64,000 nt of DNA from NCBI GenBank assembly GCA_000002445.1, contig CM000208.1:3990026-4054025 (forward strand), in the 5' to 3' direction. Shown here one piece after another: positions 346 to 62,139 of this stretch. A program made the position numbers and the translations under genes. Within the stretch, counting starts at the first letter, position 1; every line of letters starts with the position of its first letter. The DNA is from Trypanosoma brucei (lineage: Eukaryota). A model generated the notes under the pieces. The model did no database searches, was not told the origin of the DNA, and saw only the letters and a list, made by a program, of their open reading frames with translations.

Positions 346-2102
346 AGGCCAGCGTGCCTAAGTCTAACTGGACGGGAAAAAATAGAAGCACATAAAATTG
401 ACAGTATTGTTAAATGGAATTAAGTGAGTATATAAATTAATGGGATAAACTAAGAGGTGGAATACGCGCAGTTGAATACGCAAATGCGACTGTTGGTATC
501 ATCATAAAAAAGGAAATGTTGGGTAGACAATTCTGAATACACTAAAGCTAGTGTGCAATCGAAGTAGAGTAGCTAAGTGTTTCGTGGTATCAATGCCGGG
601 CACGATAAGGGAAATGAAATACACCATTCATAGACAGGATGTGCGACTGAGAACCTGAGAGGAAAATAATACATGAAGTGGATTAACCGATGGCACGCTG
701 CATTTTACGCAAATATGGGTATATACTGCTGAAACTTTGATAAAAGCGACTCTCATTTTATGATAATACTGGAAACTTATGGCTAGCTCTAGAGGAAAAA
801 CAGTAGCAAAAGGAGTAAGAAGGGATTTTTTATGAGTGTGGTAATATCGATGTCTTGTTCTCGTCATACATAGTAATCATCTCTAACATTTGTTTGAAAT
901 AATGAAATATTCTCAATACCATATTTTTAAAGAAGTGACCACTTTGGAATTACTGCAGTCATAAAAATGAAAATATAAAACGGAAATTGCTTAAAGTACC
1001 CCATTTGTCTGCCGTTGTAAGAGGTTTATGAAGTACTGAAAGTTTGTAATGACAGTCCTCCAATTCCGTATTGGTTTACTGGACAGATAATTTTTACTTT
1101 CAAGGGGCGAATAATAAACATAAGAGATGTCGCGGATGCGAAACTAACAAATCGCATCAACAAGAGAAAATCAGTAACTAATGAACTTTCTGCATTACAA
1201 TTATACAGTGCAAAACGGCAGCTAACTGAAGAGCAACACAATCTCAACCAGAAGAAAGAAAACAATAGCGTCTATCAAAAAAGAGACCGATACTTTTCTA
1301 TTCCACTAGCGGCAGTCATGGATAAATTTTCACAACATATAACCCAATAAAAACCATAAAGGTAAAAATTTTAATATTTAGGAGGTTTATCAGAAATTTG
1401 GACAGACGAGAGGCCTTGAATGCAGGAGTATAGATGTAAATATAACAGATGGGAAGTGAAGTCAAAGACAGACTGAATTTTTATTAGTAGAGGTATATTG
1501 GTACTTTTAATAAAAAACAATATGTCACCTGTCATCGATTGGCTCAGCGGTAAAAAACGCATATTGAAATAGAAGTATAGAAGCAATATCACTTTCTACA
1601 TTAATACTATGTAAATCCACATGAAGTTCATAAACTCTAACAATCTATGAATTATAGATAACTGCGAGAGTTTACAAAGTCACAGCAAGCAAACTCTATG
1701 TGAGAAAGAAAACAGCAATAGAACTAACTTGAAATAAAGGGCATTTCCGTCAGTAATAGCTAAATTATACAGCTAATATAGTTGAAAAATTTGTACTAAG
1801 AACATGATAATTAGTCGAAATATTTAAACAGTGATATGGCGTTTAAGTATGGAAAATTAAAGAAGTTTAATTTACAGAGGACCGAGAGAGTAGAGAAAGA
1901 AAAAGGGAAATGCAAGGAAAAGTTGTTCCGGAGGTGAAAGGTTCGTATTTTTGAAAATAACTAGACGGCACCATGCTTATTAGACCTTAAAAATAAAATT
2001 TGCTGGAAATGTCATGTGCAAAGACTAAGACAAAACGTACTGTTCTCTGAATCCTCAACGTCATCGCGACAAGTTAAAGCAAGTAAAAGTCAGTGACGGA
2101 AG

Positions 2103-3714: not shown

Positions 3715-4300
<586 letters not shown>

Positions 4301-5747
4301 GACTTAATGCATGGACACAATACACAAATTTAAAAATATGGTAAGGTGTAATCAGATCACGTAGCTGAGAACGAACGAGTAGAAACGAGCAGTAGTATTA
4401 TTTTAAAGAGACATGCAGAGGCTGGTGAATCAAACGCGGGTTCCAGCGGCGAAAGTAACAATGATGAATATGCGAAAGAATAGGAAGGCTGAGACCGTGG
4501 AGAGAACGAACGCGACGGAAGAAACAAATGTAGTTATTGCGTTTTATGCAGCGACAGCGAAAGGAAATGCATGACTAAAGTGCAAGGGAAAATAAGAGAC
4601 AAAAGAACAAGAAAGCAGTATATTAATCAGTGAATTATCTCTATGAACTGAACAGAATCGATGCCAGCACAACATTAACTCCGTATTGGTATACTAGGTG
4701 GTCACTAAGCCATTTAAAGAATTGAGTAATTAACATAATATTTTTCGCTGATACAAATCTAACGGAGCCTATTTATAAAGCAAAAGAAGCAAAAAGACAT
4801 TTTTGTACATCAATTCATGAAGCTTAGCCGCCATCTAAGCAACCCGATTGCAGATAATTGAGAGCAGAAGCTAAACCGAATTGCATTCAATAAAAAACAA
4901 CATCACAACTTGGCCATTTTAAGGAAAAATGCAGGCTGAGAATTAACGGAAGATAGTAGGGAGTAAGGGCTGTAAATGATAGGTATTTTAAATAAAAAAA
5001 TAGATTAACTTGCTTTGAATATATAAAGTAGAGATTCCTTAACTAAACTGAATACATTGCTACAAAAATTGTGGAAAAAACAACAGAATAGAACTTCCAC
5101 CCTAAAAACATCTAAATAAAGACACCAAAAGCGATTCAACAACTATAATCGTCGAAATACAAAAAGCAGCCACAAGATGTCACAGGCAAAATCTCTACAG
5201 AACAGTTCGGTCATAGTGAAGAAGCGGCTACGCATAATAGATAATCCAGGTAGAAATTGCCTAACTGTCAGAAAACAAAGCAAACATTGTTGATGACAAG
5301 AAAAAAATTAGAGAGACCAAACCGCACTAAAAGCGGGGCTCTAACATTAGCATGTTTATCTGTAACTGTTCCAGCAACCATTCTGAAAAAAGAAATTCAG
5401 GGAATGGCAAAACTGACTTTAAATGATTTTATAAAGTTGTTAGAAACATTTTTCTTGTAAGAAAATCTTGAGCCAATACAAAAGACCTTAAGCATCAACA
5501 AGTTGTATGTCAAAACATCACAAACAACGCGACGCACCAGCAATGATAGCCGCCTCACCGGAACCGACAAACACGTGTACAGAAACAACGCGGCGCACGC
5601 ACTATCGCTTGAGCCAATGACAGACCAACTGGAACCGCTGTGAAAAATGCGCAACGTCAACAGGATAGTTAGCCAACTAACCTACCACCGAACAACGTCT
5701 AAAAAACCGTCCTTTACAACCCTCATCCTGAAGAAAAAGAAGAAGCA

Positions 5748-7560: not shown

Positions 7561-8929
7561 ATAGAAAAGGCTGAAAGGGCGCTATAATACAAGCACTTAA
7601 AACAATGGTAATTGTGTAATATGAGTAATTTGTAAGTAGAAAAGTGGCTATGAGAACGATTAAAGTAGATTTAATATGTGCAGTTTCAAATACACACATG
7701 ATAATTTACACAATCATAAACAAGAAAATAATGGAAAGAAAAGTAAGGGAGAGAGTGCAGTGTACAGGCTAAATGGAGTTGCTGCGTTAACCGCAGAGAA
7801 TCTAATAGAAGCAGAAAAAGGTACAGAAGGGGAAAATACTGGATTGGGTGACGGAACATGCGGCACCTCGTCGCGAAATAAGAGTGCTAAAGGAGCCATT
7901 TATGCCCAGTATTTCAACAAAAAGTAAATAGATACTACAGCGGAGATGGCGATGGAAACTGTGGTCTTCTTCCGATGGAAGATCCTACTCTCCAGCTGTA
8001 AAAAAACACAACAAGCAGAGGAAGTAGAAAAAGAACGGAGGGGTTGGGTAAGCGTGAGGTAATTTCGTATAGGTCACAATAAATAGAGTAATATTGTTCG
8101 ACTCCTGTGTCCAAAAATATATTTCTATTTTGAGAAATATTTTAAAAATAGGACTGCTAATAGATTTCCATGAATAGAAAAGGAAAAATAAAAACAACAC
8201 CGAAACTGATTAAAACAACTTGTATATGAACACACGGATAATCTTTTTTAAATGAAGAGGGTCAATGGCGATACCACTCCAATTCCGAATTGACATACTA
8301 ACCAGAAATTAAGGGCTTTGACGGAACGAGAGATGCCTATAAAAGCGGTCGCTGACCGCATCATACGGTACAAATTAGCGCAGTAAAAGCACCGAATAAG
8401 GAAGTATATGGACCCAGAGTACCAATTCTTAGACGGCATAGATCTAAAACTACGCATCTCTTTAAGGCATAAAAACGATAAAAGCGAAACAGCAAAGAGC
8501 ATAAGCGTTAGATTGTTATTTATTCGAGATGTATTAATGACAATTAATGTGTAGATAGAACAGATGATAAACTATAAGATTCAAAATTTTAGCCATAAAA
8601 ATATGCAGAGTATTTTTAAAAATTACAGGATTGGGTTGAGCCAGAAACAGATGTAATAGATGCAAAACGACCTGAATTAAGAGCCAAAAATAAACTTAAA
8701 GAAAAATTTAATTTAACTCCTAATAAACATTGGTTTGTATGGTGGAACAACCCCTTTTATAGCTTAAAAATATAAAAAACAACCATTCATAATGATAACT
8801 TACATATCACAAATAGTTTAGTTGTTAGAAACATTGATAGAATGAAGAAACAACGTTTGACACAAAGCGGTTTGATATGGGGCAAATAACAGCTGATATT
8901 AAATGCTATAGTACTCCCAGAAAGTACGC

Positions 8930-14076: not shown

Positions 14077-14838
14077 ATGGAGTTTTTGGAGAGACAGAAT
14101 GCAAGTGATGAGAATATTTTAATAACTGTTGACGGGTCTGATGTTATTGTTTCTGATGGAAATAAGTATGAGAGTGCTGTGAAATATTTTATACAAAATA
14201 CTGCAGCTAATGAGGAAAAATTTAGTGGAGAGGATATAGTCAAAGAAAAGCAAATTTCCCCTATTATGTTCATGACAACATCAGAGTGTTATGCGCCTCA
14301 GTTGGATTTGCTCATGAACTCAGATCACAAGGAGCATGTGCAGAGATGTTTTCGGTTTTTTAATGTGGGCTACAGGAAAGAGGAGGATAAGAAGCTACCG
14401 CATTTACTGAAATTTCCTTCAAGTGGCAAACCTTTTCTTAGTGGGCGGAGGTATAATCATGAGAGTTTGGGAGTTTAATAAATTTGAATATGCTTTTGGA
14501 GAGTTACTAAAGGGAAGTGAGGAGTGGTGGTCAAAGCGGAGTATTTACAAACCATTGCTAATATGGAGTGTCATTCAGGAAGAATATGTTGGACAGAGAT
14601 TTTTCGAGGAGGAGAGGAATTATTTGGCTGGATTATGATGAAAGAATCTTTTCTCAGTCCGTACTTAACTTCTGGCAACGATCTCGCGTTTCTTCAGTTT
14701 CCAGGACGTGCGCTCTTCTGGAAGGCAAAGAATAGAAAAATAATATTCAACTTTACTTGGTATAAGCAGTTGGAGCGAAGGAAATTTACAAATAAAAGTT
14801 TGAGAACAATTTGTATTTATGTAGTTAGTGAAGTGTAA
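14077..14838 (+). pseudogene. Non-VSG degenerate ORF cluster of unknown family (three overlapping frames; candidate ESAG- or RHS-related pseudogene fragment)
   Basis: ORFs 14077-14478, 14423-14638 and 14524-14838 abut in different frames, which is the pattern of a frameshifted gene. The proteins are not Ala-rich or Cys/Lys-rich like VSGs, and no VSG motifs are present. The cluster lies downstream of the 70-bp repeat at 12955. Confidence 0.3.
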
Positions 14839-15072
14839 TTGTATTTGTAATATAAGAATATTTGTGGTGAAGCGTTTAAAGAAAAGGAATTGTTTAATCC
14901 GATCAAGTTGTAATTACTTGGCGACCATTTGCTGGCCGACTAGCTTGGATATTTCAAATTTTCTATAGTGGACATGCAACTGTAAAGTATAAAATGAGCA
15001 AACTAAGAAACAGTGGTCCATAATATCACTCTCTGCGCCTTTCACACAAGCTCTGATATAGAAACGCACAAA

Positions 15073-16632
15073 ATGGACCACAGACCTTCAGGGGAAGTGC
15101 TGACTTTAACAATCGTTGTAACTCTCGCAATATGCAGACCCCAGGTAGCACAGGCCATTGCCGACGAAACAAATGCCGCAGCTTTTGCCGCCGCATGTGC
15201 GTTGCTGCAAATCCAGGAGGCTGTAGCCCCGGCAGATTTACAGCCTGCAGATCCAACAGCGGCTCTTTACGAACTATAAGCCATCAACATGACAGTAAGC
15301 AACGAAAAATGGCAATCCAAATTTATAAAAGGTGAAGGTCAAGGGGTTAAGTGAGAGGATGACGAAAACAAAGATAAAACCACTAGACCAGAATGGAAGA
15401 CTAAATGGGAGGCGTGGGCCAAGGCTCGGCAGGCAATCAAAGATGCAAGCACTGAACCGGCCAAGACAATAAAAACGTCAGCCTTAGCAAAATTAACCGG
15501 TTGTGCGAAGAATCTAGCACAAAAGCGGGTAAATAACATTATAGAGCAGGCAAAGAAACTAGCAGCGTCCGGTAAAAGCGATGAGAACACATGGAAAGAG
15601 ACCACAAAGGAAAAAGTCGACGAAAAGATGTTAGAAGCGGTTTATGGCGATGCTAGCGGCAAAGTGAGTTTCACCACGGGCACACCGACCCTCGCTGCAG
15701 CCAAGTCGGTAGACGCATGCGGTACGGACGGCACAGTAGACAGCAAACAACCACTAGCGTATGTGCTCCTCTGTCTCGCTGCAGAAGCAGGAACCGGCGC
15801 CAACAGCATACACCCAGTTGCCAAAGCAAGTACTCCAGTGGGCTGGACAGCCGTAAACACAGCCCTGAACACACAATTCGCCGCTGTAAAAGGGCTTTGC
15901 CCCGCAAACCCCAAGCTAACTGTAACCCCAGAAGCAATCCGACAGGCACTTAGCGCACTGCAATCACAGATCCGAATAATAGGCAACAAAGGCTACCTTG
16001 GCTACTACGCAGCAAGCGGCTGCGACGGCAGCAGCAACAACGGCGTTTGTGTCAAGTACAGCACAAAAATAACAAATCTAGCGAATAACTTTGACAAACT
16101 CACTTACGTGTCCTCCATGGAAGAAGCAGCCAAGCTACTTGAGCGGCGCCGGGAGGCAGCACAGCGGCGGCAGGCTATAGCTGACCACATTGCGGCGCTG
16201 TTACACGGTGCGTACAACCTGGAGGATAAAGTAAACCAACTTGCAGATGTAGCGGCTATACCAGCCGGCAATCCTCCAGCAAAGCCTAAGTTATTAGACG
16301 CAGAGCTTGGCGCAAGAACAACTGAGTGCGAAGGAATAACCAAAAGTACTAATTGCGATGCCAAAACTTACTGCAGTTATGAAACAGAAAGCGATGGCAG
16401 TAAAAAGTGCAAATATAATGCGACAAAAGCCACAACAAATAGCGTCCCTGCAACGCAACATCAAACAGGAGGGACTGAAACAGCAACAGAGAAATGCAAA
16501 GGCAAACCTGAGAAAGATTGCAAATCTCCGGATTGTAAGTGGGAGGGAACAGATTGCAAGGATTCCAGCTTTCTCGTCAATAAGAAATTTTCTCTGATAG
16601 CTGCTGCTTTTGTGAGCTTGGTGATATTATGA
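15073..16632 (+). pseudogene. VSG: VSG (type B N-terminal domain) with a frameshift near 15280-15350 and an otherwise complete C-terminal domain and GPI signal
   Basis: Signal peptide MDHRPSGEVLTLTIVVTLAICRPQVAQA. A shifted frame reads DDENKDKTTRPEWKTKWEAWAKARQAIKDAS...; the 15628-16632 ORF ends CKGKPEKDCKSPDCKWEGTDCKDSSFLVNKKFSLIAAAFVSLVIL. A stop (G Q G V K *) lies at about 15350 between the segments. Confidence 0.85.
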
Positions 16633-16864
16633 GAATTTTATGGATTGTTGCTTAATTATATAAAGTTTATAATTTATATAATTTTTTATTTTAATATATT
16701 TAGCACTTTTTGATGAAAATATTCAAATAAATGAAAATATTAGTAATTTTGAAATATATAAAATTTTGGCATGAAAGCTCCTCATATATGTAAAGTATAA
16801 TTTGATAGGGTGAAATGTTAGCGCTGTTACGAGAGTTTCACATCCATAATTATTTTATGAATGC

Positions 16865-17015
16865 TAATTATGGTAAAAATAGTAATAATAATAATAATGA
16901 TTATGATAAGAGAGTGTTTTGAGTATCTGTATATACAAATATTATAATAAGATTATTAATGATAATAATATTATAGTAATAATAATAGTAGGTGTGTGTG
17001 GTATGAGTGAGTGGC
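16865..17015 (+). repeat. 70-bp repeats (about 2 copies)
   Basis: agtaataataataataatgattatgataagagagtgttttgagtatctgtatatacaaatattataataagattattaatgataataatattatagtaataataatagtaggtgtgtgtggtatgagtg. Confidence 0.8.
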
Positions 17016-18695
17016 ATTAAAAGAGAGCACGGGGACTTTTATTAACAGAGCAAACGCAAAAAGACAAAGTATATTATGTAGATATAATATGCGTAGTTTA
17101 ATACACAAAACGCGGCTGTTACCGTCATCATATAAAAGAATATGGAGGAGAAAGATGTTTTACTGTACAAGCCAACTGATTTATTACGTTATTCATGTAA
17201 GAAACGAAATAAAAAAGAAGGAAGCAACTACGGAATTAAACAAGGTTATAAGTGAAAGCATATCATAGAAAGAAATGATAAATCCGGAGGAGATGATGCT
17301 CCGTGTTTCTAACAAAAGTGGATAGACGCTGCTTTAGTGATGATGGTGGATACTTTAGTTTATAATTTGATTATGAATCATAATATTCATTTATAAAATA
17401 ATATAAAGAGGAACGGAATGAAGAAGTGATTGGATAGCTGTAAGGAAATATTAAAGTCTTCTTTCCATAAGATATAGTATTAATAGTCAACATTTGTGGG
17501 CAAAAATATAATATTATTTGAAGGAGGATTTTTAAAACTATGATTGCTAGTGAATTAGTGTGAAAATTAAAAGACGAAATTTATGGCCTAAAACGCTTGA
17601 AATAGCCCATACATAAACATAATTAAGAACTTTATGAAGTGGACAAAACGTTCTTAATTATGCTCCTTCAATTCCGTATTGGTACACTGGGGAAACGTTA
17701 AGAGCTCTAAAGGAGCTTTTAATTAATATAAAAAATTGTTTACTAATGCAAGAATAACAGAACGTATTGGCGAAAGAAAACCAACGAACAACGCAGTTTC
17801 CATCTGCGAATTACATAGTCTGAGACCCAGGTGAAAGAAAACGAAGCAATATTATAGACAGTAGGAGCAGTAGGCGAACTGTATTCATAAAAACACGTTG
17901 TTCTTTTATTTCAGTAGAAGAATTTGGGAATGAAACTATACAAAATGAACACATTAACAGCCATAAATGATGAATTATGAGATATAAAAAGTTTCATAAT
18001 GTTTTGGTGAGATAAGAGTCTGGAATTCTTGATTGCATATGGGAATTTGAAAGTTGACGATAGAGAATAGTTAAAATTTTATAAATGGATGTAACTTAGA
18101 GTTTTGGATTACAGAACAAGCCTTCATCTGTCAACAATTTTTTATACACTAAACATACGTGTCACATAAAAAATCCCGGCTGCAGTATCATTTATGACAA
18201 CAAGACCATATAAAGTCGCAGTGAATTCAAAACTTAAAAAAATCTACAAAGCACATCCAATGGAGGAGTTGGCTTCTGAACTACGAGGACCTCCAATTAA
18301 ATAAGAGACTAGAAATGTAGCTAAAAAGAAAACAGCTGCACTTAGCTCAGCGACGGAGATATGGTATGACTGAATTAGCCGCGAAACTGGCTGTAAAATC
18401 CATGAAAACTACGGAAGATATTCGCATCGTTTTGTAAAATACAACAGTGTGAAAATGCGGGTAAGTGGCATAAAGACAATAAAGGAGATAGAAGAGATAC
18501 AAAAGATAGAGGGTAATTAATACAGGGGTTGTTTTGGCCGTCACTATAACCGAATGAAGCCGCTCTCTAAGCCCAGAGCACAGCGTGACTCTAAATAGGC
18601 TACGCATCCCCAAGGGTGCAAAATTCGTTACTCCTCTTTTTTTCTTTTCAATTACAACCGCAGACCCAGGGAAAGAGACTACCATCAATTCACAA

Positions 18696-20201
18696 ATGAC
18701 AGCAGCAATCCAATTTCTTGTAGCAGCATGCGCCGTGATAAGCGTCGCACGACCCGACGACACTAAGCCAGCCAATGTCATGACAACAGCAACTTCGGCG
18801 GCACTCGTTCTTTCAGACGTAACAGCTCAGATGGCGGAGGCCCTAACACCTGCGTCAGCAGAAGCAGACAAACTAAGACAGGCGCTCGCGCAAGCGGCCG
18901 GAGCAGCACTTTACGACAATAGTCGACTCGGCACGGCGGCACTACCGGTCGCAATAGTTCTCTCTAAGCGGCTCACAGCATGGACGCAAGGGAGGCTGGA
19001 ACTGGCACCGCGACTAATACGAGCAGTGGCCAAACTAGCAAATCTCACAGGCCACCAATTCGATGCGGCATTGATGCAGGACCTCCGTATACCGAATATT
19101 GACACCGGAAACACGGACCCACAAACGGCAGCGGCGGCGTCAAATCTCTATGTAACAGCTGGAGACAACACTTTCAGCAGCAAATCAGTAACAGCTTTCA
19201 ACAAAGAGCGCGCCCAAAAACACGAGTGGATAAAGCCCGCGAACTTCGAAAGCTTAAATATATTCCTTCCAAATCCGAAAACCAGGGACACGGGGACGGC
19301 AGCAGCGCCGACCATCGGCAAAGAACAAAACGACGGCGGCAACAAGTGCAAAAATGGAGACGTGACAACAGACGCCGACGAGCAAGGCGGCGAAATCTGT
19401 GTCATTGGAGGAACGGTCGTCAATACGGAAAAGATAACAATAACCAAGGGAAGTAACAACTTCGGAAACCCCGAGGGCGAGGCTTTCAACGACGGCAATT
19501 TCGAACATCACGCGCGGAGCGCCGTCGCGACAGCCTACGCAGTATTAAAGGAGCTAACACCACCGCCCACCTTCGACATCGATAATGCAGAAAGCTTTAA
19601 AGCTGACACCGACTTCAAGGCGGCGGTAGGCGCAATTTTTGGCAATCTCGACAAAAAAACGAGCTTAGCAGCAGACGACGACAAAATTACAACCATAATC
19701 AAAAACATCTACGGAGAAGGTACCGAAACGAAAACCAAGTTCTGGGAGAAACTGAAAACGATCAAAAAGCCATCAAAAATACTGGGCGAAGATGCTTCAG
19801 GGGATATAACAACCGTATCGGACTTAGGCACAGCATTCAAACTGCTTTTGGAGACAAAAGTCAAGGAAAGCAAACACAAACAACAAGCGGCCGCCCCTGT
19901 AACCGCGACTACAGGAAGTGAGAAAGAAACAGAAACCAAAAAAGAAGACGAATGCAAAAAGCATAAAACAAGCGAAGATTGCAAAAAGGAAAAAGGTTGT
20001 GATTTTGATGATAAAAAGCCTGACGGTGAAAGATGCTTTCCTAAAGTTGAAACTGAAAGAAAAGATGAAAAGTCATTTTCTAGCAATTTGAGAGTTTCTG
20101 TTTCTCAGATATTTGCTGCGTTCTTTTGGTTGCATTTTAATCATTTTTGTTTCTATAAAATTTTTATGATTTTTGCTACTCTGATATATTTTAACACGTA
20201 A
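18696..20201 (+). CDS. VSG: VSG (type B N-terminal domain) with an atypical read-through C-terminus
   Basis: Start MTAAIQFLVAACAVISVA lies inside the 538-aa ORF 18585-20201. The N-terminal domain is long and Ala-rich. The C-terminal domain reads ECKKHKTSEDCKKEKGCDFDDKKPDGERCFPK. The stop at the canonical position is missing, so the ORF continues through a hydrophobic tail and through a perfect 16-mer TGATATATTTTAACAC at 20181-20196. Confidence 0.7.
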   Translation: MTAAIQFLVAACAVISVARPDDTKPANVMTTATSAALVLSDVTAQMAEALTPASAEADKLRQALAQAAGAALYDNSRLGTAALPVAIVLSKRLTAWTQGRLELAPRLIRAVAKLANLTGHQFDAALMQDLRIPNIDTGNTDPQTAAAASNLYVTAGDNTFSSKSVTAFNKERAQKHEWIKPANFESLNIFLPNPKTRDTGTAAAPTIGKEQNDGGNKCKNGDVTTDADEQGGEICVIGGTVVNTEKITITKGSNNFGNPEGEAFNDGNFEHHARSAVATAYAVLKELTPPPTFDIDNAESFKADTDFKAAVGAIFGNLDKKTSLAADDDKITTIIKNIYGEGTETKTKFWEKLKTIKKPSKILGEDASGDITTVSDLGTAFKLLLETKVKESKHKQQAAAPVTATTGSEKETETKKEDECKKHKTSEDCKKEKGCDFDDKKPDGERCFPKVETERKDEKSFSSNLRVSVSQIFAAFFWLHFNHFCFYKIFMIFATLIYFNT

Positions 20202-20789
20202 GCAAACTGGAAAATAATTTTTTTCGGTTCTGCCAACGCGTGTAAATTTTTTGTTGATAGCCAAAAAACTATCCTTTTTTCTGTTGAATTTTTTATGAAT
20301 TCTTTTTGTCCTGCAACCTAAAACTATAAAAAAAGAATGAAGGAGGATAGATAGGAAGGATAAAGAATGCTATTGTGGTTTAAATTATGTTTATTTCTCC
20401 TCTTACTAATAATTTTATTTTTATTATCAGTGAAGCGTCACGACTTTAGTTTTTTATTTTTTGGTGATGCAGAGACTCTATCTTGATGCGGAGCCTAACC
20501 CTCATTCGACAGACGCACATCTTCGCTTGCTTTTGGCGACACCACCTCGCTGTAAGCTTGTTGCGATTCCCCTTTTTATGCTTTTCTGAATGTCAGCTCT
20601 GCCTCATGCTGTGCGATTTTTTTGTTTCAAACTTTACTTTTTTCCGCCGTCTTTTAATTAAATATTGATACCACGGTTTTTTTTTAAAAACGAAACCACA
20701 AGCTTTTGTTCGACGAGAAGCCGATCAACCTTTTTTTTTTTGTAAATTATTTTTTGTTGAATCCAGGTGCTTAACCGTCACACACTTAA

Positions 20790-21004
20790 ACACAACGAAA
20801 GATCCCCAAAAGATACAGAAAATGCAAGGGAGAAACCGACGAGGGTAAATGCAACAAAAGGATGGGTGCGATTTCAGATATGGAAAATGAAAACTTAAGA
20901 AGGTAGTTAAATTGGAAGACGAAAAAGCCACAAACACCACAGGAAGCAATTCTTTTGTCATTAACAAGGCTCCTCTTTCGATTACATTTTTTGTTCTAGC
21001 ATAA
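20790..21004 (+). pseudogene. VSG: Orphan VSG 3' fragment (C-terminal domain and GPI-signal remnant)
   Basis: Reads ...TTGSNSFVINKAPLSITFFVLA*. Compare the terminal VSG ending TTGSNSFVISKGPLLLAFLLF and the copy at 57159 ending NSFVIHKAPLLLAVLIIA. No N-terminal domain lies upstream. Confidence 0.7.
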
Positions 21005-21375: not shown

Positions 21376-23172
21376 TCAAGACTAAATAGGTGGGGAAAAT
21401 AGAACTAGACAAAACAGTGGTTAGTGTGCTGTAGGAGTAAATTAGTGGGAGATTACAAGAAATATTATTGAAAGAAACTTAAAGAATACAAATGAAGAGG
21501 GGGGTATGGAATTGTGCAGTTTAAGGCGTACAGACGGCGGCAACAATAACTATACACGTGAACACGATAGAGGAGAAAGTAAGAGAGACAAAATCTACTG
21601 TACAGAACAAGTGAAGGCACTACATTATACGCATTGATAGAAACAGTATGCAAAAATGAGGAAATAAAAAGCGGAGTAAAATAAGAAAAGGTGTGGCAAA
21701 TGACCACGGATGACAGTAGCACAGAAGGAGAAAGGGATTTTGCTCCACATTTCACACATAAATTGATAGATGCTACTGAAGAGATAATACTGATTTTAAT
21801 TTTAAATTTGATGATGCATCCTAATATTACGATTTAAAGATTGTAATGTACGAAGGGGTAATAATTTTCAGGTCACATTGAAGTCTTTTATCATATATTT
21901 TAACAGCCAATAACATTTGTGGCCAATAATTTAAGATAAGTAAATTTTTAAGCTTTAACTACTGATGAACTAGTGTGGACAGAAAAAATTAACAAAAAGC
22001 AGAAGCTGCTTAAAATGAAACATTTATGTACCTTTATAGAAAAATTGTGAAGTACGATAAGTTTTCAATTACTCTAATACAATTCAGCATTGGTGTACTG
22101 GCTAAAAACTAAGACCTTTGAAGGAGCGAGTAATTCATATAAAATTGGTTGCCAATGCACAACAATTAAGAATATTAATAAAACAATAGCATAGATAAAG
22201 GCGCTTCTTGTCCACAAATTTCCTAGGCTTAACATTCGACGAGCCAACTTGTAGCGAAGCAAAAACAAGAAGGAGGGAAAATCGTATCCGTGAACAATTA
22301 ACACCGTTACTTTGTTTTTCCAGGAGCATAGATTAAACTGTATAAAATTGAACCAACTAGCAGCCAAAATGGTTAAAGTGTAGATACAGAAAGTTTTCAA
22401 ATAATTAGAGACATAGAGGATTGAATGAGGGAGCGTATATGGAAATTTAATAGATGATGACAAATACGTGACAAAATGTCATAAATGGAAGTAGATTGGA
22501 GTTTTAATTACAAAGTGAACTGGAACCTATCAACAATTGCTTCTCCGCTAAAAAAAAGACGTATCAAAAATAAGTCCAGTATCAGTATCGAACACAAAAA
22601 AATAAAAGTCATAGAAAATGCAAAAACTCTCATAATATATGAAGCGCAACTAAATAAAAGATTATCTCCAGTTGTCGAACGAGAAATACAAGCTTAAGCA
22701 ATGAGGACTGCAATGGAATCGGCCGGCAGACAGAAAGGGGTTAGAAAGAGGTGGGTGATCTTAGTAGCGTAAATCGTTTTGAAACAAGTACTAAGAGGTA
22801 TGATCACTGGAAAAGATATTCCTGTGGTGTGATGGCCTGCAAGTGTGGGAAATCAAATAAGTTTAACATAGAATAAATAGAGGAGATAAGTTCAATAGAA
22901 GAGAAAGTTTCTTCCTTAATTAGACGAATAAATTTAAAATAACAGCAGAATTTAACAAGAGTCTGAAAAAAATGCAACCAGAACAAAAACTTCCCCCTGA
23001 CGAAATCACAGGCAACCTTGGAAAACCAAACCAGAACAGAGTTACTCGTCAATGCTATCAATTCGAATACCAAAGAAGTAAGAGACACTTTTCCTGTTTT
23101 TTAAAAACAAAAAGAAGCACCTAAAGGCAACTCAGCACGACCTCAAACCAGACGTTAATACAGTAAGGACGC

Positions 23173-25245: not shown

Positions 25246-27038
25246 GACTAAATAGGTGGGGAAAATAGAACTAGACAAAACAGTGGTTAGTGTGCTGTAG
25301 GAGTAAATTAGTGGGAGATTACAAGAAATATTATTGAAAGAAACTTAAAGAATACAAATGAAGAGGGGGGTATGGAATTGTGCAGTTTAAGGCGTACAGA
25401 CGGCGGCAACAATAACTATACACGTGAACACGATAGAGGAGAAAGTAAGAGAGACAAAATCTACTGTACAGAACAAGTGAAGGCACTACATTATACGCAT
25501 TGATAGAAACAGTATGCAAAAATGAGGAAATAAAAAGCGGAGTAAAATAAGAAAAGGTGTGGCAAATGACCACGGATGACAGTAGCACAGAAGGAGAAAG
25601 GGATTTTGCTCCACATTTCACACATAAATTGATAGATGCTACTGAAGAGATAATACTGATTTTAATTTTAAATTTGATGATGCATCCTAATATTACGATT
25701 TAAAGATTGTAATGTACGAAGGGGTAATAATTTTCAGGTCACATTGAAGTCTTTTATCATATATTTTAACAGCCAATAACATTTGTGGCCAATAATTTAA
25801 GATAAGTAAATTTTTAAGCTTTAACTACTGATGAACTAGTGTGGACAGAAAAAATTAACAAAAAGCAGAAGCTGCTTAAAATGAAACATTTATGTACCTT
25901 TATAGAAAAATTGTGAAGTACGATAAGTTTTCAATTACTCTAATACAATTCAGCATTGGTATACTGGCTAAAAACTAAGACCTTTGAAGGAGCGAGTAAT
26001 CCATATAAAATTGGTTTCCAATGCACAACTAATTAATAATATTAATAAAACAATAGCATAGATAAAGGCGCTTCCTGTCCACAAATTTCCTAGGCTTAAC
26101 ATTCGACGAGCCAACTTGTAGCGAAGCAAAAACAAGAAGGAGGGAAAATCGTATCCGTGAACAATTAACACCGTTACTTTGTTTTTCCAGGAGCATAGAT
26201 TAAACTGTATAAAATTGAACCAACTAGCAGCCAAAATGGTTAAAGTGTAGATACAGAAAGTTTTCAAATAATTAGAGATATAGATGATTGAATGAGGTAG
26301 CGTATATGGAAATTTAATAGATGATGACAAATACGTGACAAAATGTCATAAATGGAAGTAGATTGGAGTTTTAATTACAAAGTGAACTGGAACCTATCAA
26401 CAATTGCTTCTCCGCTAAAAAAAAGACGTATCAAAAATAAGTCCAGTATCAGTATCGAACACAAAAAAATAAAAGTCATAGAAAATGCAAAAACTCTCAT
26501 AATATATGAAGCGCAACTAAATAAAAGATTATCTCCAGTTGTCGAACGAGAAATACAAGCTTAAGCAATGAGGACTGCAATGGAATCGGCCGGCAGACAG
26601 AAAGGGGTTAGAACGAGGTGGGTGATCTTAGTAGCGTAAATCGTTTTGAAACAAGTACTAAGAGGTATGATCACTGGAAAAGATATTCCTGTGGTGTGAT
26701 GGCCTGCAAGTGTGCGAAATCAAATAACTTTAACATAGAATAAATAGAGGAGATAAGTTCAATAGAAGAGAAAGTTTCTTCCTTAATTAGACGAATAAAT
26801 TTAAAATAACAGCAGAATTTAACAAGAGTCTGAAAAAAATGCAACCAGAACAAAAACTTCCCCCTGACGAAATCACAGGCAACCTTGGAAAACCAAACCA
26901 GAACAGAGTTACTCGTCGATGCTATCAATTCGAATACCAAAGAAGTAAGAGACACTTTTCCTGTTTTTTAAAAACAAAAAGAAGGCCGTAGAGAGAGTTC
27001 AGCACTCGGTGGAAGCTGGATTATTACACTCATACAAA

Positions 27039-28995: not shown

Positions 28996-30402
28996 GGTCA
29001 ATACAAAATGGAACCCAAATAGAGGCACAAAAACAAGAGAAAGTGTCTAATTACAGTAAGTTAGTAGGAAATTGAAAGAAGTAGATGTAGTGTGAACGGT
29101 TTCAAGCGCAAAAATGGCAATGCGTACAATCTTACAAAAGAAGATGATAGAAACGACAATCAGACAGAGAAAGAATGCAGTGTACTGGCAAAAGGATGTC
29201 GCTGTGCTTTCCGTACAGAAAGCTACAGAAAAATAAAAGGAAAAAGGGAATGAAATAACTGAATATTAAATACCAGCAAACAAAGCAGGAGAAAATGAAA
29301 CAGGAGGAGAGGATATTGGTTACGTGGTTTTATAATATGATGGCATATCCTAGTATCAAGCTGTGAATAAGCATAAGATGAATTGTATAGGTGTGATAGA
29401 ATGTAAAAGTTTTTTCTTTTTAAGTATAGTAATAATGGCAATATTTTGTTGAATAATATTATTTTATTGAAGATGTGTTTTAGAAAGAAGGATACTAATG
29501 GATTGTAGTAGAAAACAAAACATGAATAAAACTAAAAAAACCTGCTAGTATAGCTTATATGTGAAGAAATGGAAAGATTTTGTGAGGTAGAGAGAATTAA
29601 TGGCAATACTTTATCAACTCCGTGTTATCATACAAAACAGAAGTTAAGAGCTTTAAAAGAACGAATAATTAACATAAGAGTTGATGCTCTTTCGGAGCTG
29701 ATAGAACGGACTAACAAAGTGTGGATAAATCACTTTTAGCGCCGAACCCACTCAAAATTAAACGAAGACGATACAAAACATTAGCATCTGGGAAAAAATA
29801 GAGACCGACATTTGGACACGCGAGCGAGACGCACTAACGGTATCTTTTTATTCCAAGACAAAACAAAGCTCCGGATTAACAGATTATAATCAACTGCAGT
29901 GTGCAAATGACATATGTTTAGATATAGATATATAATGCTATAAATTAGATTTGAAGTGTAATTTTTTTGCGCAACTAAGTGTTGGTTTGAACCGCTACTG
30001 AGCAACCGTAGAACACTGATATTCAAACTTTATTTCCCCTTTACAATACTCCAGTAAACGGCCGCGAGTTGCGACATCCATCATTGGTTGAACATTTGAC
30101 TATATCACTGTTTGTTTTAGACATGATAATAAGAAAAGTAAGTTGCAGCTAGTCTTTGGGTGCAACCCAAAAAAAGAAATGGAACCTGAGGTCAAAACCC
30201 TAGAACAGCCGAGAAGATAGAACACACATCAGCAGTGCACTTTACTCAAACTCAAGCCTTTTTTTCGCGGAGACGAAACACTCACTTTGCAGCGATCAAC
30301 CCAAAGTAAGTAGACTACATAGGTTGTTCTTTCAAGGTTCTGACGTCAATAACGCAGCTTCATTTTGTAAACAGCATTACTTCACGAAGAGTAACGCTAG
30401 AG

Positions 30403-32430: not shown

Positions 32431-33336
32431 AAAAAATTTACAGTCTAATTAGAGGCATTAAACAATGATAAGAGTGTAGTAGGAAGAAGTGAGTGACACA
32501 GAATGTCCAGTAGCGGATAATAATATCACTTTAGAGGTAATAACTAAAGGAGAGCGGAATACAGCTACTTTAACAGTAGAGATAAAACATGAACCAATAA
32601 CATGAAGTAATATTCGTCCACTATCATGAAAAGACGCAGGCCAAAAGGTAGGAGCCTCTGTATCTACTTCCTTGTACGTAACGGCAGAAACTCAGATGGT
32701 ACTGATAAAAGGTAAAGGAAAATGTGTCCCTAAAAAGGTAAGAAAACGCAAATAAATTAACGGAAGATCTTTAAGAAGTGTGGTAAATTAATTAAGATAT
32801 CCAATCAATTTCGTATAAGTATAAACACCAGACATTAATACATTTGTTGAAGAAAATAACCCATGTAAAAGTTTTTGTTGATACGAAGCTGAAATAATGA
32901 TTGATAAACAAAACGGTAAAAAAATACTTTGTGGTTCAAAAATTAAACGTATTAAAAGTCATAAAACTAAACTGACGTCATATAATCACAAACGGAAACA
33001 ATAAGTCGATAGGGTCTTCCAGAAAGAGAAGTGTTACCTTGTTATTCTTAGTCAAACCGAACCTTCAAATTAAAAGAAGATAGAAGAAAGTGAGAACCTC
33101 AAATTTAGATGCAATAGATGCAGATAGAAAGATGTGGCTTAAAAAATCTCAATATTGTTGAAGATAAAATCTCGCTCATAGTTGCAATTCTTCTCATGAA
33201 GTTTTTGTTTTGCATCTGCACTTGATGTTCCGTCTGGGAGCTCATCTGATATTCCCACTTTTTCTCATCCTCACACGTTGGGCGACTAAATTCTGAAAGA
33301 ACGACCATATACAGCCTAAGACAAAAACCTTTCAAG

Positions 33337-37800: not shown

Positions 37801-39084
37801 GAGAGGTGAACAAGAAATGGAAGGAAAAGACAAGCAGTTAAAAGTATTGCAATTGTGCAATAAGAGAACTAGGTAAATCTGAAGGATTGTAAGAAAGAAG
37901 GGCGGTGCCGCCACTTCCAGAAGCGGCAGCGAAAAGAAGATGATGTAACATGCGGCATTTAAAGCACAAATATGAGGATGAGCATAATCATAGACAGGCA
38001 GGCAATGGAGGAGACAGCGACGGAGAAAGAGTACAGTGTGTGGGAAAATGGAGTTGCAACGTTATCTGTAGAAAAATAACCTGATAAGTAAAAAGGAAAA
38101 AATATGAAATGACGTAACAAAATAAGCGGTAACACGGAACACCACAGAAGGAACTAATACAAAAGATTGTGCTCCATATTTTACTGTCTAAATAGACAGA
38201 TTCCACTGTGTATATCGTCGAGACTTTAGTTTTTAATATAATTGAGATCATAATATTCACCTGTAAAGTAAAAGTAAAAGAGGAAGGAGGAAGACATTGA
38301 GTGAGTGTGAGGCAATTTCTAAGTCTTATTTTTATTAAATATAGTAATAATGATCATCATATCCTTGAGACAATATAATATTATCGAAATGGGAATTTTA
38401 AAATAAGGAATATCAATTTATTACCGCGTACAATCTAAAACGTAAAAAACTCTAAATATGCTTCTAATACCGCATATATAAAGCTATGAAATAGATTTAT
38501 GAAATACGAATAATAACTGTAGAAGAGACCCGAATTTTATAGGGCCACAGAGGCCAAAATTCAGCTTATTGAACGGCCATCTGCGGCATATTAAGCCAAC
38601 CCTTGATACACATTTAATGTGAATGTTAAAGAAGATGAACCAGTAAAGCAAGTGTAAAAGAGACAGAAAGTGCAATATTTAAGCGGAAGCCCTATCAAAT
38701 CACACAGACTTATAAACTAGTACAAGGAAAATCCCGCATTCTCCAAAAACAGAGTACTATCATAACTCCATCTAGAAGTAGAAACGAAGACTAATCCATA
38801 AATTAAACAGATTATAAACTATAAACTTCAAGCCTCCTAGATTAGATGTTTGTGTGGAAATTCAAACGGTTGGATGGTTGGAACTTTGGCGACAGGTAGA
38901 TACAAGAAACCAAACAAATGAGAACATCTTTAAGAAAATCGTTAATAAAAGAACACATGTATATAGAAAACTTAAATCATCGAATAACAGAAGTGTTCTT
39001 TTTACTGACCAACGGCTAAAAAATAGTCGCTGTACGATTACAACATTTAGAAGTTTCAAAACTTACAGAAAAAGACGATAGAAA

Positions 39085-40915: not shown

Positions 40916-42039
40916 TGTCGAAGAATATTTTTTAAAAACAAAAAAACAGTGTGTGAGAAGAAGAGATGGGATGTCCGCTGTTTCATACAAAAACATTACG
41001 ATGAGCACCATTATATAGTAAGATGATGGTGATAAAATGAGGAGGAGAGAAAATGCAATGGAAATAACAAATGGAAGCACTATATCAGCCCCAAAGCAGC
41101 TATATAACAAAATAAAATTCAGAATTAATTAAACAATAAGCGACAACATAGCACAGAAGAAAATGACACACGAAACATGGTGAAATTGTATAGCACATTT
41201 TGCTCAATAATTGACAGACTCTGTTGCAGAGATGGTGACGATTATAGTTTTCAGTCTTATTACAGATCTTAATATCAGATGAAAGAAGAATTAAAAAGAA
41301 TGGAAACTTGTAGAAGAGGTGCTTGGGCTAATTTGAGGTAATATCGAAGTATTATCATATATAATTTCCAACATTTGTGGACAACGATACAATATGTCTG
41401 GGAGGAGCATGTTAAAAATATTTTTACCAATGTATTGCTGTAGATGGCAAAGGTAGATAAAAGTAGCGGACACTGCTTCAAAAAAAAGTATTTATAATCA
41501 TTTTGATGGCCATTATTAGTTTTTAAAAATGTGTAGCGATTCCTCTTCCAATTCCGTATTGGTATACTGGAAAACAATTAGGTGTTTTTGAAAAGCGAGT
41601 AATACATATAAAAGTGGCTCTTATTAGCAACTAACGAATCGTATTAAGACAAGGCACAAGTTTTGAGTCTCAGCGGAGGGAGATTGGCACTCAATTTTCA
41701 AGTTACAAAGCATTGGATTGAATCAAGAGTGAATCCGATAGATATAGAAGAAACTGTCTCGTAATTAAATACTGTAATTCATTGCCTGAACTATGAGCTT
41801 TTTCCAGAAAAAAAATGTTTCCAAACAACATTACTGCAAAGATAATCTATTTTTATTAACAAAAACACCGGCAGACAAGGCGTTAGCATACAACAGCCAA
41901 ACTAGGCAGAGACAGCAACGCTGCGGTGAAGAGGCCAGCTTGAGAAAGCACTTTAGATTTTTAAACCCGCCACAAAAAAACGGTGACAGGAAGCTCCAAG
42001 AACATGACGGCAACAAAAGTTCTGTTTAGTGTACTCTAT

Positions 42040-54615: not shown

Positions 54616-55707
54616 CAATAATTGTGGTGAAAACCGAATGCGCGGAAAAATAGAGGAAGTTAAAATAAAGTTTAGAATATATAAAAATAATTGAACCTGT
54701 TGGAGAAAGAGCACAAAAATTACTATTTTAAAGAAAATTTTGATAAGAAGGGCAATTATGTGCGGTTTAAGTGCAGAAATGACAAAAGGTATTATAACAA
54801 ACAAGAAGAAGGTTGAAATATGAAAGACACAGTAAAAAGCTGTGGTGTGAAGTTTTCACGGTTTACTAAAAAATATAAGTAACAGAATCTGTAGAATAAA
54901 GTGGAAGAAAAACAAGAAACCTTAAAATAATAAGAAAATACTTTGATGGGTAATAAGTGGAAAAATTTTATATAAAGTAGGAAAAAGTTTCAATGATACA
55001 TTGCTAATTTTATACTTATATAAGGGTAATAAGGTAACACTATTTAGCGAGCAGGTGCTCCATATTAGTATTTGGTCTTGTCTTCAATTTATGAAGAGAT
55101 TTAACAAGTTACAACATTTAAGATAGGGTAAGACATTCCAAAAATTAACGATTCATAAATGGAAACAACCTGAAAGAAACAAAGTTTTGAACGAGCGATA
55201 AACAAACTAGTTTCTTTTCAAAAACCTAAGATGTTTTATTCTCACAAAAATAACATGTAACAAATCAAAATTAGCAGCGTACGAAAGTAGTTAAAATAAG
55301 TAAGGTTTGAAATTCTAAAAATAAAAAAATATGTGATACTTTAAAGATTGACAGGAGTGGATTGAGTCAGCGATAAATTCAATATATATGTATAAAAAAC
55401 ATAGAATTAATGGCATACTGTGGTTGACAAACAAAAGTGAGGCTAAATTTTTTTCATGATAACCATGAGGTTCTATAGTGAAACCCTCATTTTGACAGTT
55501 TGAACATAAAACACATACAACCATTTAGACAAATAATTCACACATCACAAAAAAAGGGTATAGTAACTTTGGGCTTTTTGAATATTATTTCAACAAAAAT
55601 ATGCGAATTATTTAACTTTACAGAACCCAGACCATCTTTAAAAGCCCAAACCCTAGTCTCAACTTTGCAGCAAACACAACGCTAAAGATCAGAGGTCTAA
55701 CTTTAAA
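54616..55707 (+). other. Upstream block (co-transposed-region-like) of VSG cassette copy A; duplicated at 61041-62139
   Basis: Minus-strand ORF 54610-54804 is identical to 61041-61235. ORF 55500-55685 is about 90% identical to 61932-62132 (MNIKHIQPFRQIIHTSQKKGIVTLGFLNIISTKICELFNFTEPRPSLKAQ…). Confidence 0.8.
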
Positions 55708-60335: not shown

Positions 60336-60370
<35 letters not shown>

Positions 60371-60424
60371 TAATAGGAGAGTGTTGGGAGTGTGTGTATA
60401 TACAAATATTATAATAAGAGCAGT

Positions 60425-61040: not shown

Positions 61041-62139
61041 TTATAACAATAATTGTGGTGAAAACCGAATGCGCGGAAAAATAGAGGAAGTTAAAATAAA
61101 GTTTAGAATATATAAAAATAATTGAACCTGTTGGAGAAAGAGCACAAAAATTACTATTTTAAAGAAAATTTTGATAAGAAGGGCAATTATGTGCGGTTTA
61201 AGTGCAGAAATGACAAAAGGTATTATAACAAACAAGAAGAAGGTTGAAATATGAAAGACACAGTAAAAAGCTGTGGTGTGAAGTTTTCACGGTTTACTAA
61301 AAAATATAAGTAACAGAATCTGTAGAATAAAGTGGAAGAAAAACAAGAAACCTTAAAATAATAAGAAAATACTTTGATGGGTAATAAGTGGAAAAATTTT
61401 ATATAAAGTAGGAAAAGTTTCAATGATACATTGCTAATTTTATACTTATATAAGGGTAATAAGGTAACACTATTTAGCGAGCAGGTGCTCCATATTAGTA
61501 TTTGGTCTTGTCTTCAATTTATGAAGAGATTTAACAAGTTACAACATTTAAGATAGGGTAAGACATTCCAAAAATTAACGATTCATAAATGGAAACAACC
61601 TGAAAGAAACAAAGTTTTGAACGAGCGATAAACAAACTAGTTTCTTTTCAAAAACCTAAGATGTTTTATTCTCACAAAAATAACATATAACAAATCAAAA
61701 TTAGCAGCGTACGAAAGTAGTTAAAATAAGTAATGTTTAAAATTCCAAAAATAAAAAAATATGTGACACTTTAAAGATTGACAGGAGTGGATTGAGTCAG
61801 CGATAAATTCAATAGATATGTATGAAAGAAGCTTGGGATTAAAGACGCAGAGCTTTTAAAAAACAAAATTTATGCTAAATTTTTGTCATTATAACCATGA
61901 GGTTCTATAGTGAAACCCTCATTTTGACAGTTTGAACATAAAACACATACAACCATTTAGACAAATAATTCACACATCACAAAAAAAGGGTATAGTAACT
62001 TTGGGCTTTTTGAATATTATTTCAACAAAAATATGCGAATTATTTAACTTTACAGAACCCAGACCATCTTTAAAAGCCCAAAGCCTAATCTCAACTTTAA
62101 ACCAAGCACAACGACGAATATCAGAGGTCTAACTTTAAA
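61041..62139 (+). other. Co-transposed-region-like upstream block of the terminal VSG (copy B of 54616-55707)
   Basis: See 54616-55707. It lies between the 70-bp array and the VSG start, as in expression-site-type cassettes. Confidence 0.8.

What the first reader, a model, noticed from the sequence alone, without database searches (positions are those of the whole stretch)
17640..17725. Recurrent ~80-bp conserved non-coding element with a CCAAT-N5-ATTGG mini-palindrome about 0.5-1.1 kb upstream of many VSG start codons
The motif …C(T)CCAATTCCGTATTGGTA(T/C)ACTGG…AAGAGCTTTAAAGGAGC(G/T)…AATTAACATAA… recurs at about 1056-1135, 4676-4750, 8268-8345, 17645-17725, 22072-22150 (with its duplicate at 25952-26030), 29615-29690 and 41543-41625. 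In each case it lies about 1.0-1.1 kb upstream of a VSG ATG: 2103, 5748, 18696, 23173, 27039. The distance is shorter for 8930, 30403 and 42040. The intervening sequence is otherwise not conserved between cassettes. The core CCAATTCCGTATTGG is a near-palindrome with 5-bp arms. Other VSGs in the window, at 15073, 33337, 39085, 44701 and the terminal gene, lack it. A positionally conserved element in otherwise divergent upstream regions suggests a cis-acting function. It could act in recombination, in replication or as a protein-binding site. It could also be a small non-coding RNA or a remnant of a mobile element.
Basis: seen in the sequence. Interest (0 to 1): 0.5.

Follow-up and report, generated by a model that had tools for sequence, protein, structure and literature searches.

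The report
Conserved stretch of VSG upstream flank
The recurring 80-bp motif is real, but it is only one well-matching stretch of a roughly 1-kb upstream flank that is copied along with one class of trypanosome surface-antigen (VSG) genes, and nothing tested here points to a function of its own.

Summary
The window is the telomeric end of a Trypanosoma brucei TREU927 chromosome and carries a head-to-tail array of VSG cassettes. The motif recurs far above chance: 11 matches to the 15-mer against 1.4 expected. A profile finds 9 clear copies in the window, all on the + strand, and 8 more in T. equiperdum VSG arrays.

It is not an island in unconserved DNA. A co-linear homologous flank of about 1.1 kb runs from the 70-bp repeats towards each VSG at 55-60% pairwise identity. 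The motif is only its second-best 80-bp window. The 350 bp upstream are equally conserved.

- The CCAAT-N5-ATTGG palindrome shows no covariation.
- There is no consensus RNA fold and no Rfam match.
- An open frame in the consensus has no homologues and no stop-codon depletion beyond control frames.
- In recent duplicate cassettes the motif is no better preserved than its neighbours.

Presence tracks VSG type. Seven of 9 typed A-type cassettes have it and none of 10 B-type cassettes has a clear copy. Most B-type cassettes carry a different conserved flank.

Best reading: it is part of the A-type VSG 5' flank (the co-transposed region), inherited by cassette duplication. Interest is low. A binding-site role, for example for ORC1/CDC6, remains untested.

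The parts
17609..17798 (+). Reference copy (c4) of the roughly 190-bp conserved block that contains the reported 80-bp motif. The core TCAATTCCGTATTGG is at 17668-17682.
   Evidence: nhmmer E 6e-36. It corresponds to positions 780-970 of the full-flank profile and is 73% identical to the consensus.
1003..1188 (+). Copy c1, 1043 bp upstream of the A-type VSG at 2103.
4618..4800 (+). Copy c2, in a short-form flank where the core lies only 420 bp after the 70-bp repeat. It is upstream of the VSG pseudogene starting at 5748.
8222..8405 (+). Copy c3.
22022..22206 (+). Copy c5, upstream of VSG 23173.
25888..26073 (+). Copy c6, a recent tandem duplicate of c5 with 4 mismatches in 187 bp.
29557..29722 (+). 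Copy c7, upstream of the A-type VSG at 30403.
32758..32892 (+). Diverged copy c9, upstream of the A-type VSG at 33337.
   Evidence: nhmmer E 7e-9 in the first round and 1e-20 in the second
41490..41656 (+). Copy c8, which carries the exact 15-mer.
38464..38651 (+). Degraded homologue of the block in the cassette of VSG 39085. It is 56% identical to the consensus, while the upstream flank modules are 66-69% identical.
54958..55103 (+). Very diverged homologue upstream of the B-type VSG at 55708.
   Evidence: element profile E 0.004; full-flank profile E 1.7e-13
61389..61533 (+). Very diverged homologue upstream of the telomeric B-type VSG at 62140. It is identical to the copy at 54958.
16865..17013 (+). 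The 70-bp repeats that open the c4 cassette.
17014..17398 (+). Proximal 5' flank. This part is shared by all 34 cassettes examined, whatever the VSG type.
17399..18017 (+). Distal 5' flank, found in the A-type and untyped cassettes that carry the block and in a much more diverged form in two B-type cassettes. The conserved block lies within it. Conservation falls to background by about 18100.
18696..20201 (+). The intact VSG served by this flank.

Best explanation
The motif is the part of the VSG 5' flank that is easiest to see by eye. [quoted passage not shown]

Shown here: each cassette reads 70-bp repeats, then about 300-450 bp of flank shared by all cassettes, then about 0.6-1.2 kb of further flank that differs between cassette families, then the VSG. 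The motif sits inside the version of that further flank carried mainly by A-type VSG cassettes.

Inferred: the motif recurs because VSG cassettes multiply by duplication and gene conversion. Those events have their upstream boundary in or near the 70-bp repeats, so the flank is copied with the gene. The flank changes more slowly than the VSG N-terminal domain, so old flank homology (55-60% identity) is still visible where the coding sequences no longer align. The motif therefore persists by hitch-hiking, not because anything tested here selects for it. Its exact 12-21-nt matches are a by-product, although they could occasionally serve as microhomology in recombination.
For: - Co-linear homology spans about -1000 to +800 around the core.
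- The full-flank profile aligns whole flanks and every hit is on the + strand, one per cassette.
- Mean pairwise identity by profile segment is 0.47 (140-425), 0.55 (425-780), 0.54 (780-970, the block), 0.44 (970-1200) and 0.38 (1200-1900). The motif is therefore not a unique peak.
- Flank similarity tracks VSG similarity (Spearman 0.59, P=0.0009).
- In recent duplicates the flank is 98-100% identical while the VSG N-terminal domain is 76-90% identical. In the c5/c6 pair the block has 4 mismatches in 187 bp, against 0 in 320 and 2 in 365 in the adjoining modules.
- In the VSG 39085 cassette the block has decayed more than the upstream modules.
- Seven of 9 A-type cassettes have a clear copy and 0 of 10 B-type cassettes do.
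- Five cassettes in front of B-type VSGs share a different 1.2-kb flank at 66-81% identity.
- The same architecture appears in T. equiperdum arrays L001-L004.
- The literature treats the 'VSG 5' flank' or co-transposed region as a cassette component that is copied with the VSG (PMC3607257, PMC2900300, PMC1904282).
Against: - The central 550 bp of the flank, including the motif, is significantly more conserved than a column shuffle allows (P<=0.0005 for 80-bp and 190-bp windows). Rates along the flank are therefore uneven, and some constraint cannot be excluded.
- The block is free of insertions and deletions in all 15 copies in the alignment, but those copies were chosen because they contain it.
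- Deleting the co-transposed region in an active expression site causes rapid switching (Davies 1997, as cited in PMC2900300 and PMC8612549). ORC1/CDC6 sites are over-represented in VSG 5' flanks (PMC3607257). Some flank function therefore exists, and the conserved core is a natural candidate for it.
- Only about 130 kb from two very close taxa was examined.
Confidence: 0.75

Rival explanations
1. The conserved core of the A-type 5' flank, motif included, is a sequence-dependent protein-binding site. One candidate is ORC1/CDC6 or a silencing or chromatin factor in silent arrays. Another is the part of the co-transposed region needed for stable expression-site activity.
For: - Conserved columns cluster along the flank.
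- ORC1/CDC6 sites are enriched in VSG 5' flanks: 53% of array sites fall in 40% of the sequence (PMC3607257).
- Deleting the co-transposed region destabilises the active expression site (cited).
- Outside the 70-bp repeats, 17 of 31 exact in-register runs of 12 nt or more fall in the block region.
Against: - The ORC1/CDC6 study found no consensus binding sequence in the arrays.
- The motif is no better conserved than the 350 bp upstream of it.
- It is not protected in recent duplicates.
- It is absent or degraded in about half of all cassettes, with no clear copy in any B-type cassette.
- The palindrome arms vary independently.
- After correcting for the number of sequence pairs, the density of exact runs is about the same as in the upstream module.
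Confidence: 0.12
2. [quoted passage not shown] The consensus frame reads ...YEVKKVNGDTPPIPYWYTGQKLRPLKERVIHIKVVADAKLTERINK....
For: - The consensus has an 84-codon open frame across the block.
- Copy c1 has a 109-codon stop-free frame at 1021-1347.
- Codon position 2 is the most conserved and position 3 the least (0.547, 0.496 for position 1, 0.469 for position 3).
- There are fewer stops than when the same substitutions are placed at random (35 against 53, P about 0.002-0.005).
Against: - There are no Pfam or PDB matches.
- phmmer of the c1 frame against 1.84 billion representative proteins returned only three hits; the two inspected by BLASTP are internally repetitive proteins matched through weak repeated stretches.
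- The consensus contains 20 other open frames of at least 40 codons on both strands. They show similar stop depletion (median ratio about 0.78, range 0.53-1.34), so a ratio of 0.66 is not an outlier.
- Individual copies are full of stops and frameshifts.
Confidence: 0.06
3. The block is a remnant of a mobile element, such as a short retroposon, that inserted upstream of VSGs.
For: It is a dispersed repeat. A degenerate non-LTR retroelement is present in the same window at about 45.9-51 kb, with a reverse-transcriptase domain at 47656-48063.
Against: - All 17 or more copies have the same orientation and the same position within a co-linear flank, one per cassette.
- Homology runs on without a break on both sides, with no element boundaries.
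- There is no DNA or peptide similarity to the retroelement in the window.
- No copy was found outside a cassette in 130 kb.
Confidence: 0.04
4. The block encodes a structured non-coding RNA or forms a hairpin or cruciform at the CCAAT-N5-ATTGG palindrome.
For: A 5+5 palindrome is present in the best copies. The c4 copy folds somewhat better than its shuffles (z = -2.3).
Against: - No Rfam family reaches threshold anywhere in the window.
- RNAalifold predicts 0 pairs on 16 copies.
- The palindrome is paired in 79.7% of cells against a shuffled mean of 81.3%, with a single double-sided change.
- Other copies fold differently, with z-scores of +0.4, -0.5 and -1.05.
Confidence: 0.02

Closest known systems
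[quoted passage not shown]
   Same: The position is the same: after the 70-bp repeats and 0.5-1.1 kb before the VSG start. The orientation matches the VSG, there is one per cassette, and it is copied together with the VSG.
   Different: The literature describes each cassette's co-transposed region as unique (PMC2900300). Here the flanks of silent-array cassettes fall into diverged but recognisable families: one carried by A-type and some untyped VSGs that contains the motif, and another found in front of B-type VSGs. All cassettes also share the 300-450 bp next to the repeats. I could not check whether the flank in front of an expression-site VSG, such as VSG2, carries the block.
70-bp repeats (the upstream recombination boundary of VSG cassettes)
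   Same: Both are cassette-associated non-coding repeats upstream of VSGs, and the motif lies 415-760 bp downstream of the last repeat.
   Different: The sequence is unrelated. The motif is single-copy per cassette and not tandem. It is much less conserved (about 0.55 mean pairwise identity against 0.66-0.72) and is present in only about half of cassettes.
ORC1/CDC6 binding regions in VSG arrays (Tiengwe et al. 2012, PMC3607257)
   Same: Those sites are enriched in the same cassette component, the VSG 5' flank, in the same strain (TREU927).

Membership tests
VSG cassette 5' flank / co-transposed region | [quoted passage not shown] | tested here: met
   The core lies 415-760 bp after the last 70-bp repeat and 490-1094 bp before the VSG start. 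All copies are on the + strand, as are all VSGs.
VSG cassette 5' flank / co-transposed region | Is duplicated together with its VSG | tested here: met
   The cassette pairs c5/c6 and 55708/62140 share 98-100% identical flanks. Flank similarity and VSG similarity correlate (rho 0.59, P 0.0009).
VSG cassette 5' flank / co-transposed region | Present upstream of the VSG in bloodstream expression sites, where the co-transposed region was defined | not testable with these tools
   VSG2 (P0045) has no contig on record. Only a telomeric VSG with a 3.6-kb array of 70-bp repeats is available, and it carries a very diverged homologue of the block.
Structured non-coding RNA | Match to a curated RNA family, or a conserved secondary structure with compensatory changes | tested here: not met
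   Rfam gave 0 matches. RNAalifold predicted 0 pairs. The palindrome shows no covariation above shuffles.
Protein-coding gene or pseudogene | Reading frame maintained across copies, and detectable protein homologues | tested here: not met
   Copies carry 0-5 stops in 84 codons, plus frameshifts. Pfam, PDB and 1.84 billion representative proteins gave no true homologue. Stop depletion is within the range of control frames.
Retroposon or mobile-element remnant (ingi, RIME or SIDER type) | Dispersed independently of host genes, in both orientations, with element boundaries or similarity to a known element | tested here: not met
   The copies have one orientation and a fixed place within a co-linear flank, and show no similarity to the reverse-transcriptase-bearing element in the window. 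The core genome could not be scanned.
ORC1/CDC6-bound site in VSG arrays | Overlap with ChIP-defined binding sites | not testable with these tools
   The supplementary files held for PMC3607257 contain no site coordinates.

The most novel reading that the evidence does not exclude
The roughly 550-bp conserved core of the A-type VSG 5' flank, which includes the motif, is a functional cis-element. It would be a sequence-dependent landing site for ORC1/CDC6 or a silencing or chromatin factor in silent arrays. After transposition it would be the part of the co-transposed region whose loss destabilises the active expression site. B-type VSGs would use a different flank for the same purpose.
Probability: 0.1. 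Interest if true: 0.6.

Novelty: new member of a known kind. Interest (0 to 1): 0.2.

Why it matters
As an independent element it matters little, because it is part of a known cassette component.

Two by-products may be useful to people who study antigenic variation:
1. The flanks in front of silent-array VSGs are usually called 'unique', but here they fall into old families, and which family a cassette carries correlates with its VSG N-terminal type. All cassettes also share 300-450 bp next to the 70-bp repeats.
2. Between recent duplicates the flank is nearly identical, while the N-terminal domain and the roughly 500 bp in front of it are 6-24% diverged. This marks where conversion patches begin.

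These flank profiles could help annotate degenerate cassettes. They could also help map the boundaries of gene-conversion events, and they give defined candidates for testing what the co-transposed region does.

Tried and rejected
- Expression-site flank: I recovered the VSG2 sequence and confirmed it against PDB entry 1VSG, but no contig encodes it in the collection.
- Locating the window in its chromosome record: look-ups for the terminal VSG (P0019), P0026 and the VSG at 18696 found nothing on record. The TREU927 origin therefore rests on the 100% protein match.
- Marcello & Barry 2007 is the paper most likely to describe VSG flanks. It is not held under the PMC identifier I tried from memory.
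- The ORC1/CDC6 paper's supplementary files have no coordinates.
- Coding hypothesis: it looked promising from the consensus frame and the first stop-depletion test. I rejected it after control frames showed the same bias and no homologues appeared.
- Palindrome or hairpin, and RNA structure: rejected.
- Link to the retroelement in the window: rejected.
- Homology-driven (RAD51) recombination between unrelated cassettes through this flank: rejected as implausible. Identity is only 55-60%, and 11% divergence already lowers T. brucei recombination about 100-fold (PMC1904282).
- Typing of VSGs 23173/27039, 5748, 8930, 39085 and 42019 failed with Pfam, the labelled VSG set and PDB. The A/B association therefore rests on 19 typed cassettes.

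Full report
**Context.** The window is 38% G+C and carries about 16 VSG genes and pseudogenes, all on the + strand. Each is preceded by one to three 70-bp repeats. The window ends in a 3.6-kb array of 70-bp repeats, a terminal VSG and (GGTTAG)n telomere repeats. The terminal VSG is 100% identical to a T. b. brucei TREU927 protein from a 4.05-Mb contig. The window is therefore a TREU927 chromosome end.

- The 15-mer core has 11 matches with up to 3 mismatches, against 1.43 expected, and none of 100 shuffles reached 11.
- A profile built from the eight reported copies finds them all at E<1e-35.
- After one iteration the profile adds a diverged copy upstream of VSG 33337 and weak copies upstream of VSGs 55708 and 62140.
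- Eight further copies occur in four T. equiperdum / T. b. equiperdum VSG-array loci (L001-L004) fetched through VSG homologues.
- All copies are on the VSG strand.
- The reported distances to the VSG start hold: 1028-1094 bp for five cassettes and 490-790 bp for three others.

**Is it an isolated element?** No.
- Sensitive pairwise blastn shows co-linear homology from about 1 kb upstream to about 0.8 kb downstream of the core for many cassette pairs. Identity is 55-60%, with E-values down to 1e-90.
- A 15-copy alignment gives this profile of mean pairwise identity: 0.66-0.72 in the 70-bp repeat, 0.40-0.52 in the next 250 bp, 0.50-0.63 across c4 coordinates 17290-17740, then a decline to the 0.33-0.40 background by about 18100.
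- Segment means along the 1928-position flank profile are 0.47 (positions 140-425), 0.55 (425-780), 0.54 (780-970, the block), 0.44 (970-1200) and 0.38 (1200-1900).
- The best 80-bp window lies about 230 bp upstream of the motif (0.603). The motif's own window is second (0.589).
- Conserved columns do cluster more than a column shuffle allows (P<=0.0005), but the cluster is the whole central 550 bp and not the motif.
- Outside the 70-bp repeats, exact in-register runs of 12 nt or more between independent copies are concentrated in the block region (17 of 31). That is why it catches the eye. Once the number of sequence pairs is taken into account, the upstream module is just as rich.

**Cassette anatomy.** The full-flank profile shows the following.
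- All 34 cassettes in the 130 kb examined share about 300-450 bp directly downstream of the 70-bp repeats, at a mean pairwise identity of about 0.5.
- About half then continue into the distal flank that contains the block. Some of these have a 350-bp deletion of profile positions 425-780. This explains the two spacings between repeat and core, about 420 bp and about 650-760 bp.
- Other cassettes switch to different sequence at about profile position 550-590.
- Five of these others form a second family that shares about 1.2 kb at 66-81% identity. They lie in front of the VSGs at window 15097, L001 2096, L001 7785, L002 14954 and L004 2369.

**Correlation with VSG type.** VSGs were typed with Pfam and with tblastn against labelled VSGs. 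Seven of 9 A-type cassettes have a clear block. None of 10 B-type cassettes does: eight lack it and two carry a very diverged version (Fisher P=0.0007). All five cassettes of the second flank family precede B-type VSGs. Several VSGs could not be typed.

**Tests for a function of the block itself.**
- *RNA and palindrome.* No Rfam family matches. RNAalifold predicts no pairs on 16 copies. The CCAAT/ATTGG arms pair in 79.7% of cells against a shuffled mean of 81.3%, with one double-sided change. Single copies fold differently and unremarkably.
- *Coding.* The consensus has an 84-codon open frame through the block and copy c1 has a 109-codon one. The first tests looked suggestive: codon position 2 was the most conserved, and there were 35 stops against 53 expected. 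However, 20 other consensus-open frames on both strands show comparable depletion. Individual copies carry stops and frameshifts. Neither Pfam, PDB nor a phmmer scan of 1.84 billion representative proteins finds a true homologue. I do not regard coding as supported.
- *Mobile element.* All copies have one orientation and a fixed place in the cassette, and homology continues on both sides. There is no similarity to the degenerate element at about 45.9-51 kb that carries a reverse-transcriptase domain.
- *Constraint in recent duplicates.* In the c5/c6 pair the block has 4 mismatches in 187 bp. The adjoining modules have 0 in 320, 2 in 365 and 4 in 493. In the VSG 39085 cassette the block position is more degraded (56% identical to the consensus) than the upstream modules (66-69%). 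A paralogue of c5/c6, VSG 53123, keeps the last roughly 370 bp of flank but has no block. None of this suggests that the block is specially protected.

**Why old flank homology is still visible.** Between recent duplicates the flank is 98-100% identical. The N-terminal domain and the roughly 500 bp before the ATG are 76-93% identical. The coding region therefore diverges, or is patched by conversion, much faster than the flank. At greater depth the VSGs no longer align at the DNA level while the flanks still do.

**Literature.**
- The 'VSG 5' flank' is a recognised cassette component, and ORC1/CDC6 ChIP sites in TREU927 arrays are over-represented there.
- The co-transposed region is described as unique to each VSG cassette, and disrupting it causes rapid switching (PMC2900300, PMC8612549).
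- Unstable transcripts arise from it in the active expression site (PMC5698767).
- The 70-bp repeats usually lie about 1.5 kb upstream of VSGs (PMC4858185).
- T. brucei homologous recombination falls about 100-fold at 11% divergence (PMC1904282). The 55-60% identity between unrelated flanks therefore cannot support RAD51-driven pairing. Only the short exact runs could serve as microhomology.
- I found no paper that describes the flank families or this block. The most relevant paper, Marcello & Barry 2007, could not be read.

**Verdict.** The recurrence is real and tied to VSGs. It is one stretch of a flank that is co-inherited with A-type and some untyped VSG cassettes, and it is not a discrete element. 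The most likely reason it persists is hitch-hiking with cassette duplication and conversion (confidence about 0.75). A sequence-dependent binding role for the conserved flank core is not excluded (about 0.1) and can be tested against existing ChIP data. Interest is low at 0.2. The flank-family structure and its link to VSG type are a modest, possibly undescribed, detail of a known system.

Noticed in passing
window 57400-64000: The chromosome end consists of a 3.6-kb array of 70-bp repeats (57400-61050), a B-type VSG (62140-63591) and (GGTTAG)n telomere repeats (63796-64000). The arrangement resembles a telomeric VSG site directly downstream of a silent array, with no expression-site-associated genes.
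   Followed up: partly
window ~45900-51000: A degenerate non-LTR retroelement, with a reverse-transcriptase (RVT_1) domain at 47656-48063 and many broken reading frames, interrupts the array just after the truncated VSG that starts at 44701.
   Followed up: partly
window 21250-24900 and 25116-28770: These are tandem duplicate cassettes. Their flanks, C-terminal domains and 3' flanks are 99-100% identical. A block running from about 470 bp upstream of the ATG through the N-terminal domain is only 90-93% identical, which looks like a gene-conversion patch. VSG 53123 is a third paralogue, 86% identical from -366 to +190.
   Followed up: partly
window 54600-57300 and 60930-63730: The cassettes of VSG 55708 and the telomeric VSG 62140 share about 530 bp of 100% identical 5' flank. 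Their N-terminal domains are 76% identical, their C-terminal domains 84%, and their 3' flanks are unrelated.
   Followed up: partly
window 12911-15097; L001 334-2096 and 6172-7785; L002 12131-14954; L004 565-2369: Five cassettes in front of B-type VSGs share their own distal 5' flank of about 1.2 kb. It is 66-81% identical among them, which is better conserved than the A-type flank, and it has no detectable similarity to the A-type flank.
   Followed up: partly
all cassettes, e.g. window 17014-17398, 10770-11210, 43757-44211: About 300-450 bp directly downstream of the 70-bp repeats is homologous in all 34 cassettes examined, whatever the VSG type (mean pairwise identity about 0.5). This extends the shared upstream homology beyond the repeats themselves.
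   Followed up: partly
window 3776-4249: There is a perfect-looking (ATA)158 tract next to the 70-bp repeat of the second cassette. This is the TAA/ATA run typical of 70-bp repeat regions, but it is unusually long here.
   Followed up: no
window 31990-32100 and 34852-34962: VSGs 30403 and 33337 have unrelated N-terminal domains but identical C-terminal ends. They also share the same variant of the 3'-UTR 16-mer (TGATATACTTTAACGC), which suggests a shared 3' conversion tract.
   Followed up: no
window 16000-24000: The whole 5' flank is purine-rich on the VSG strand, with positive GC skew and AT skew. [quoted passage not shown]
   Followed up: no
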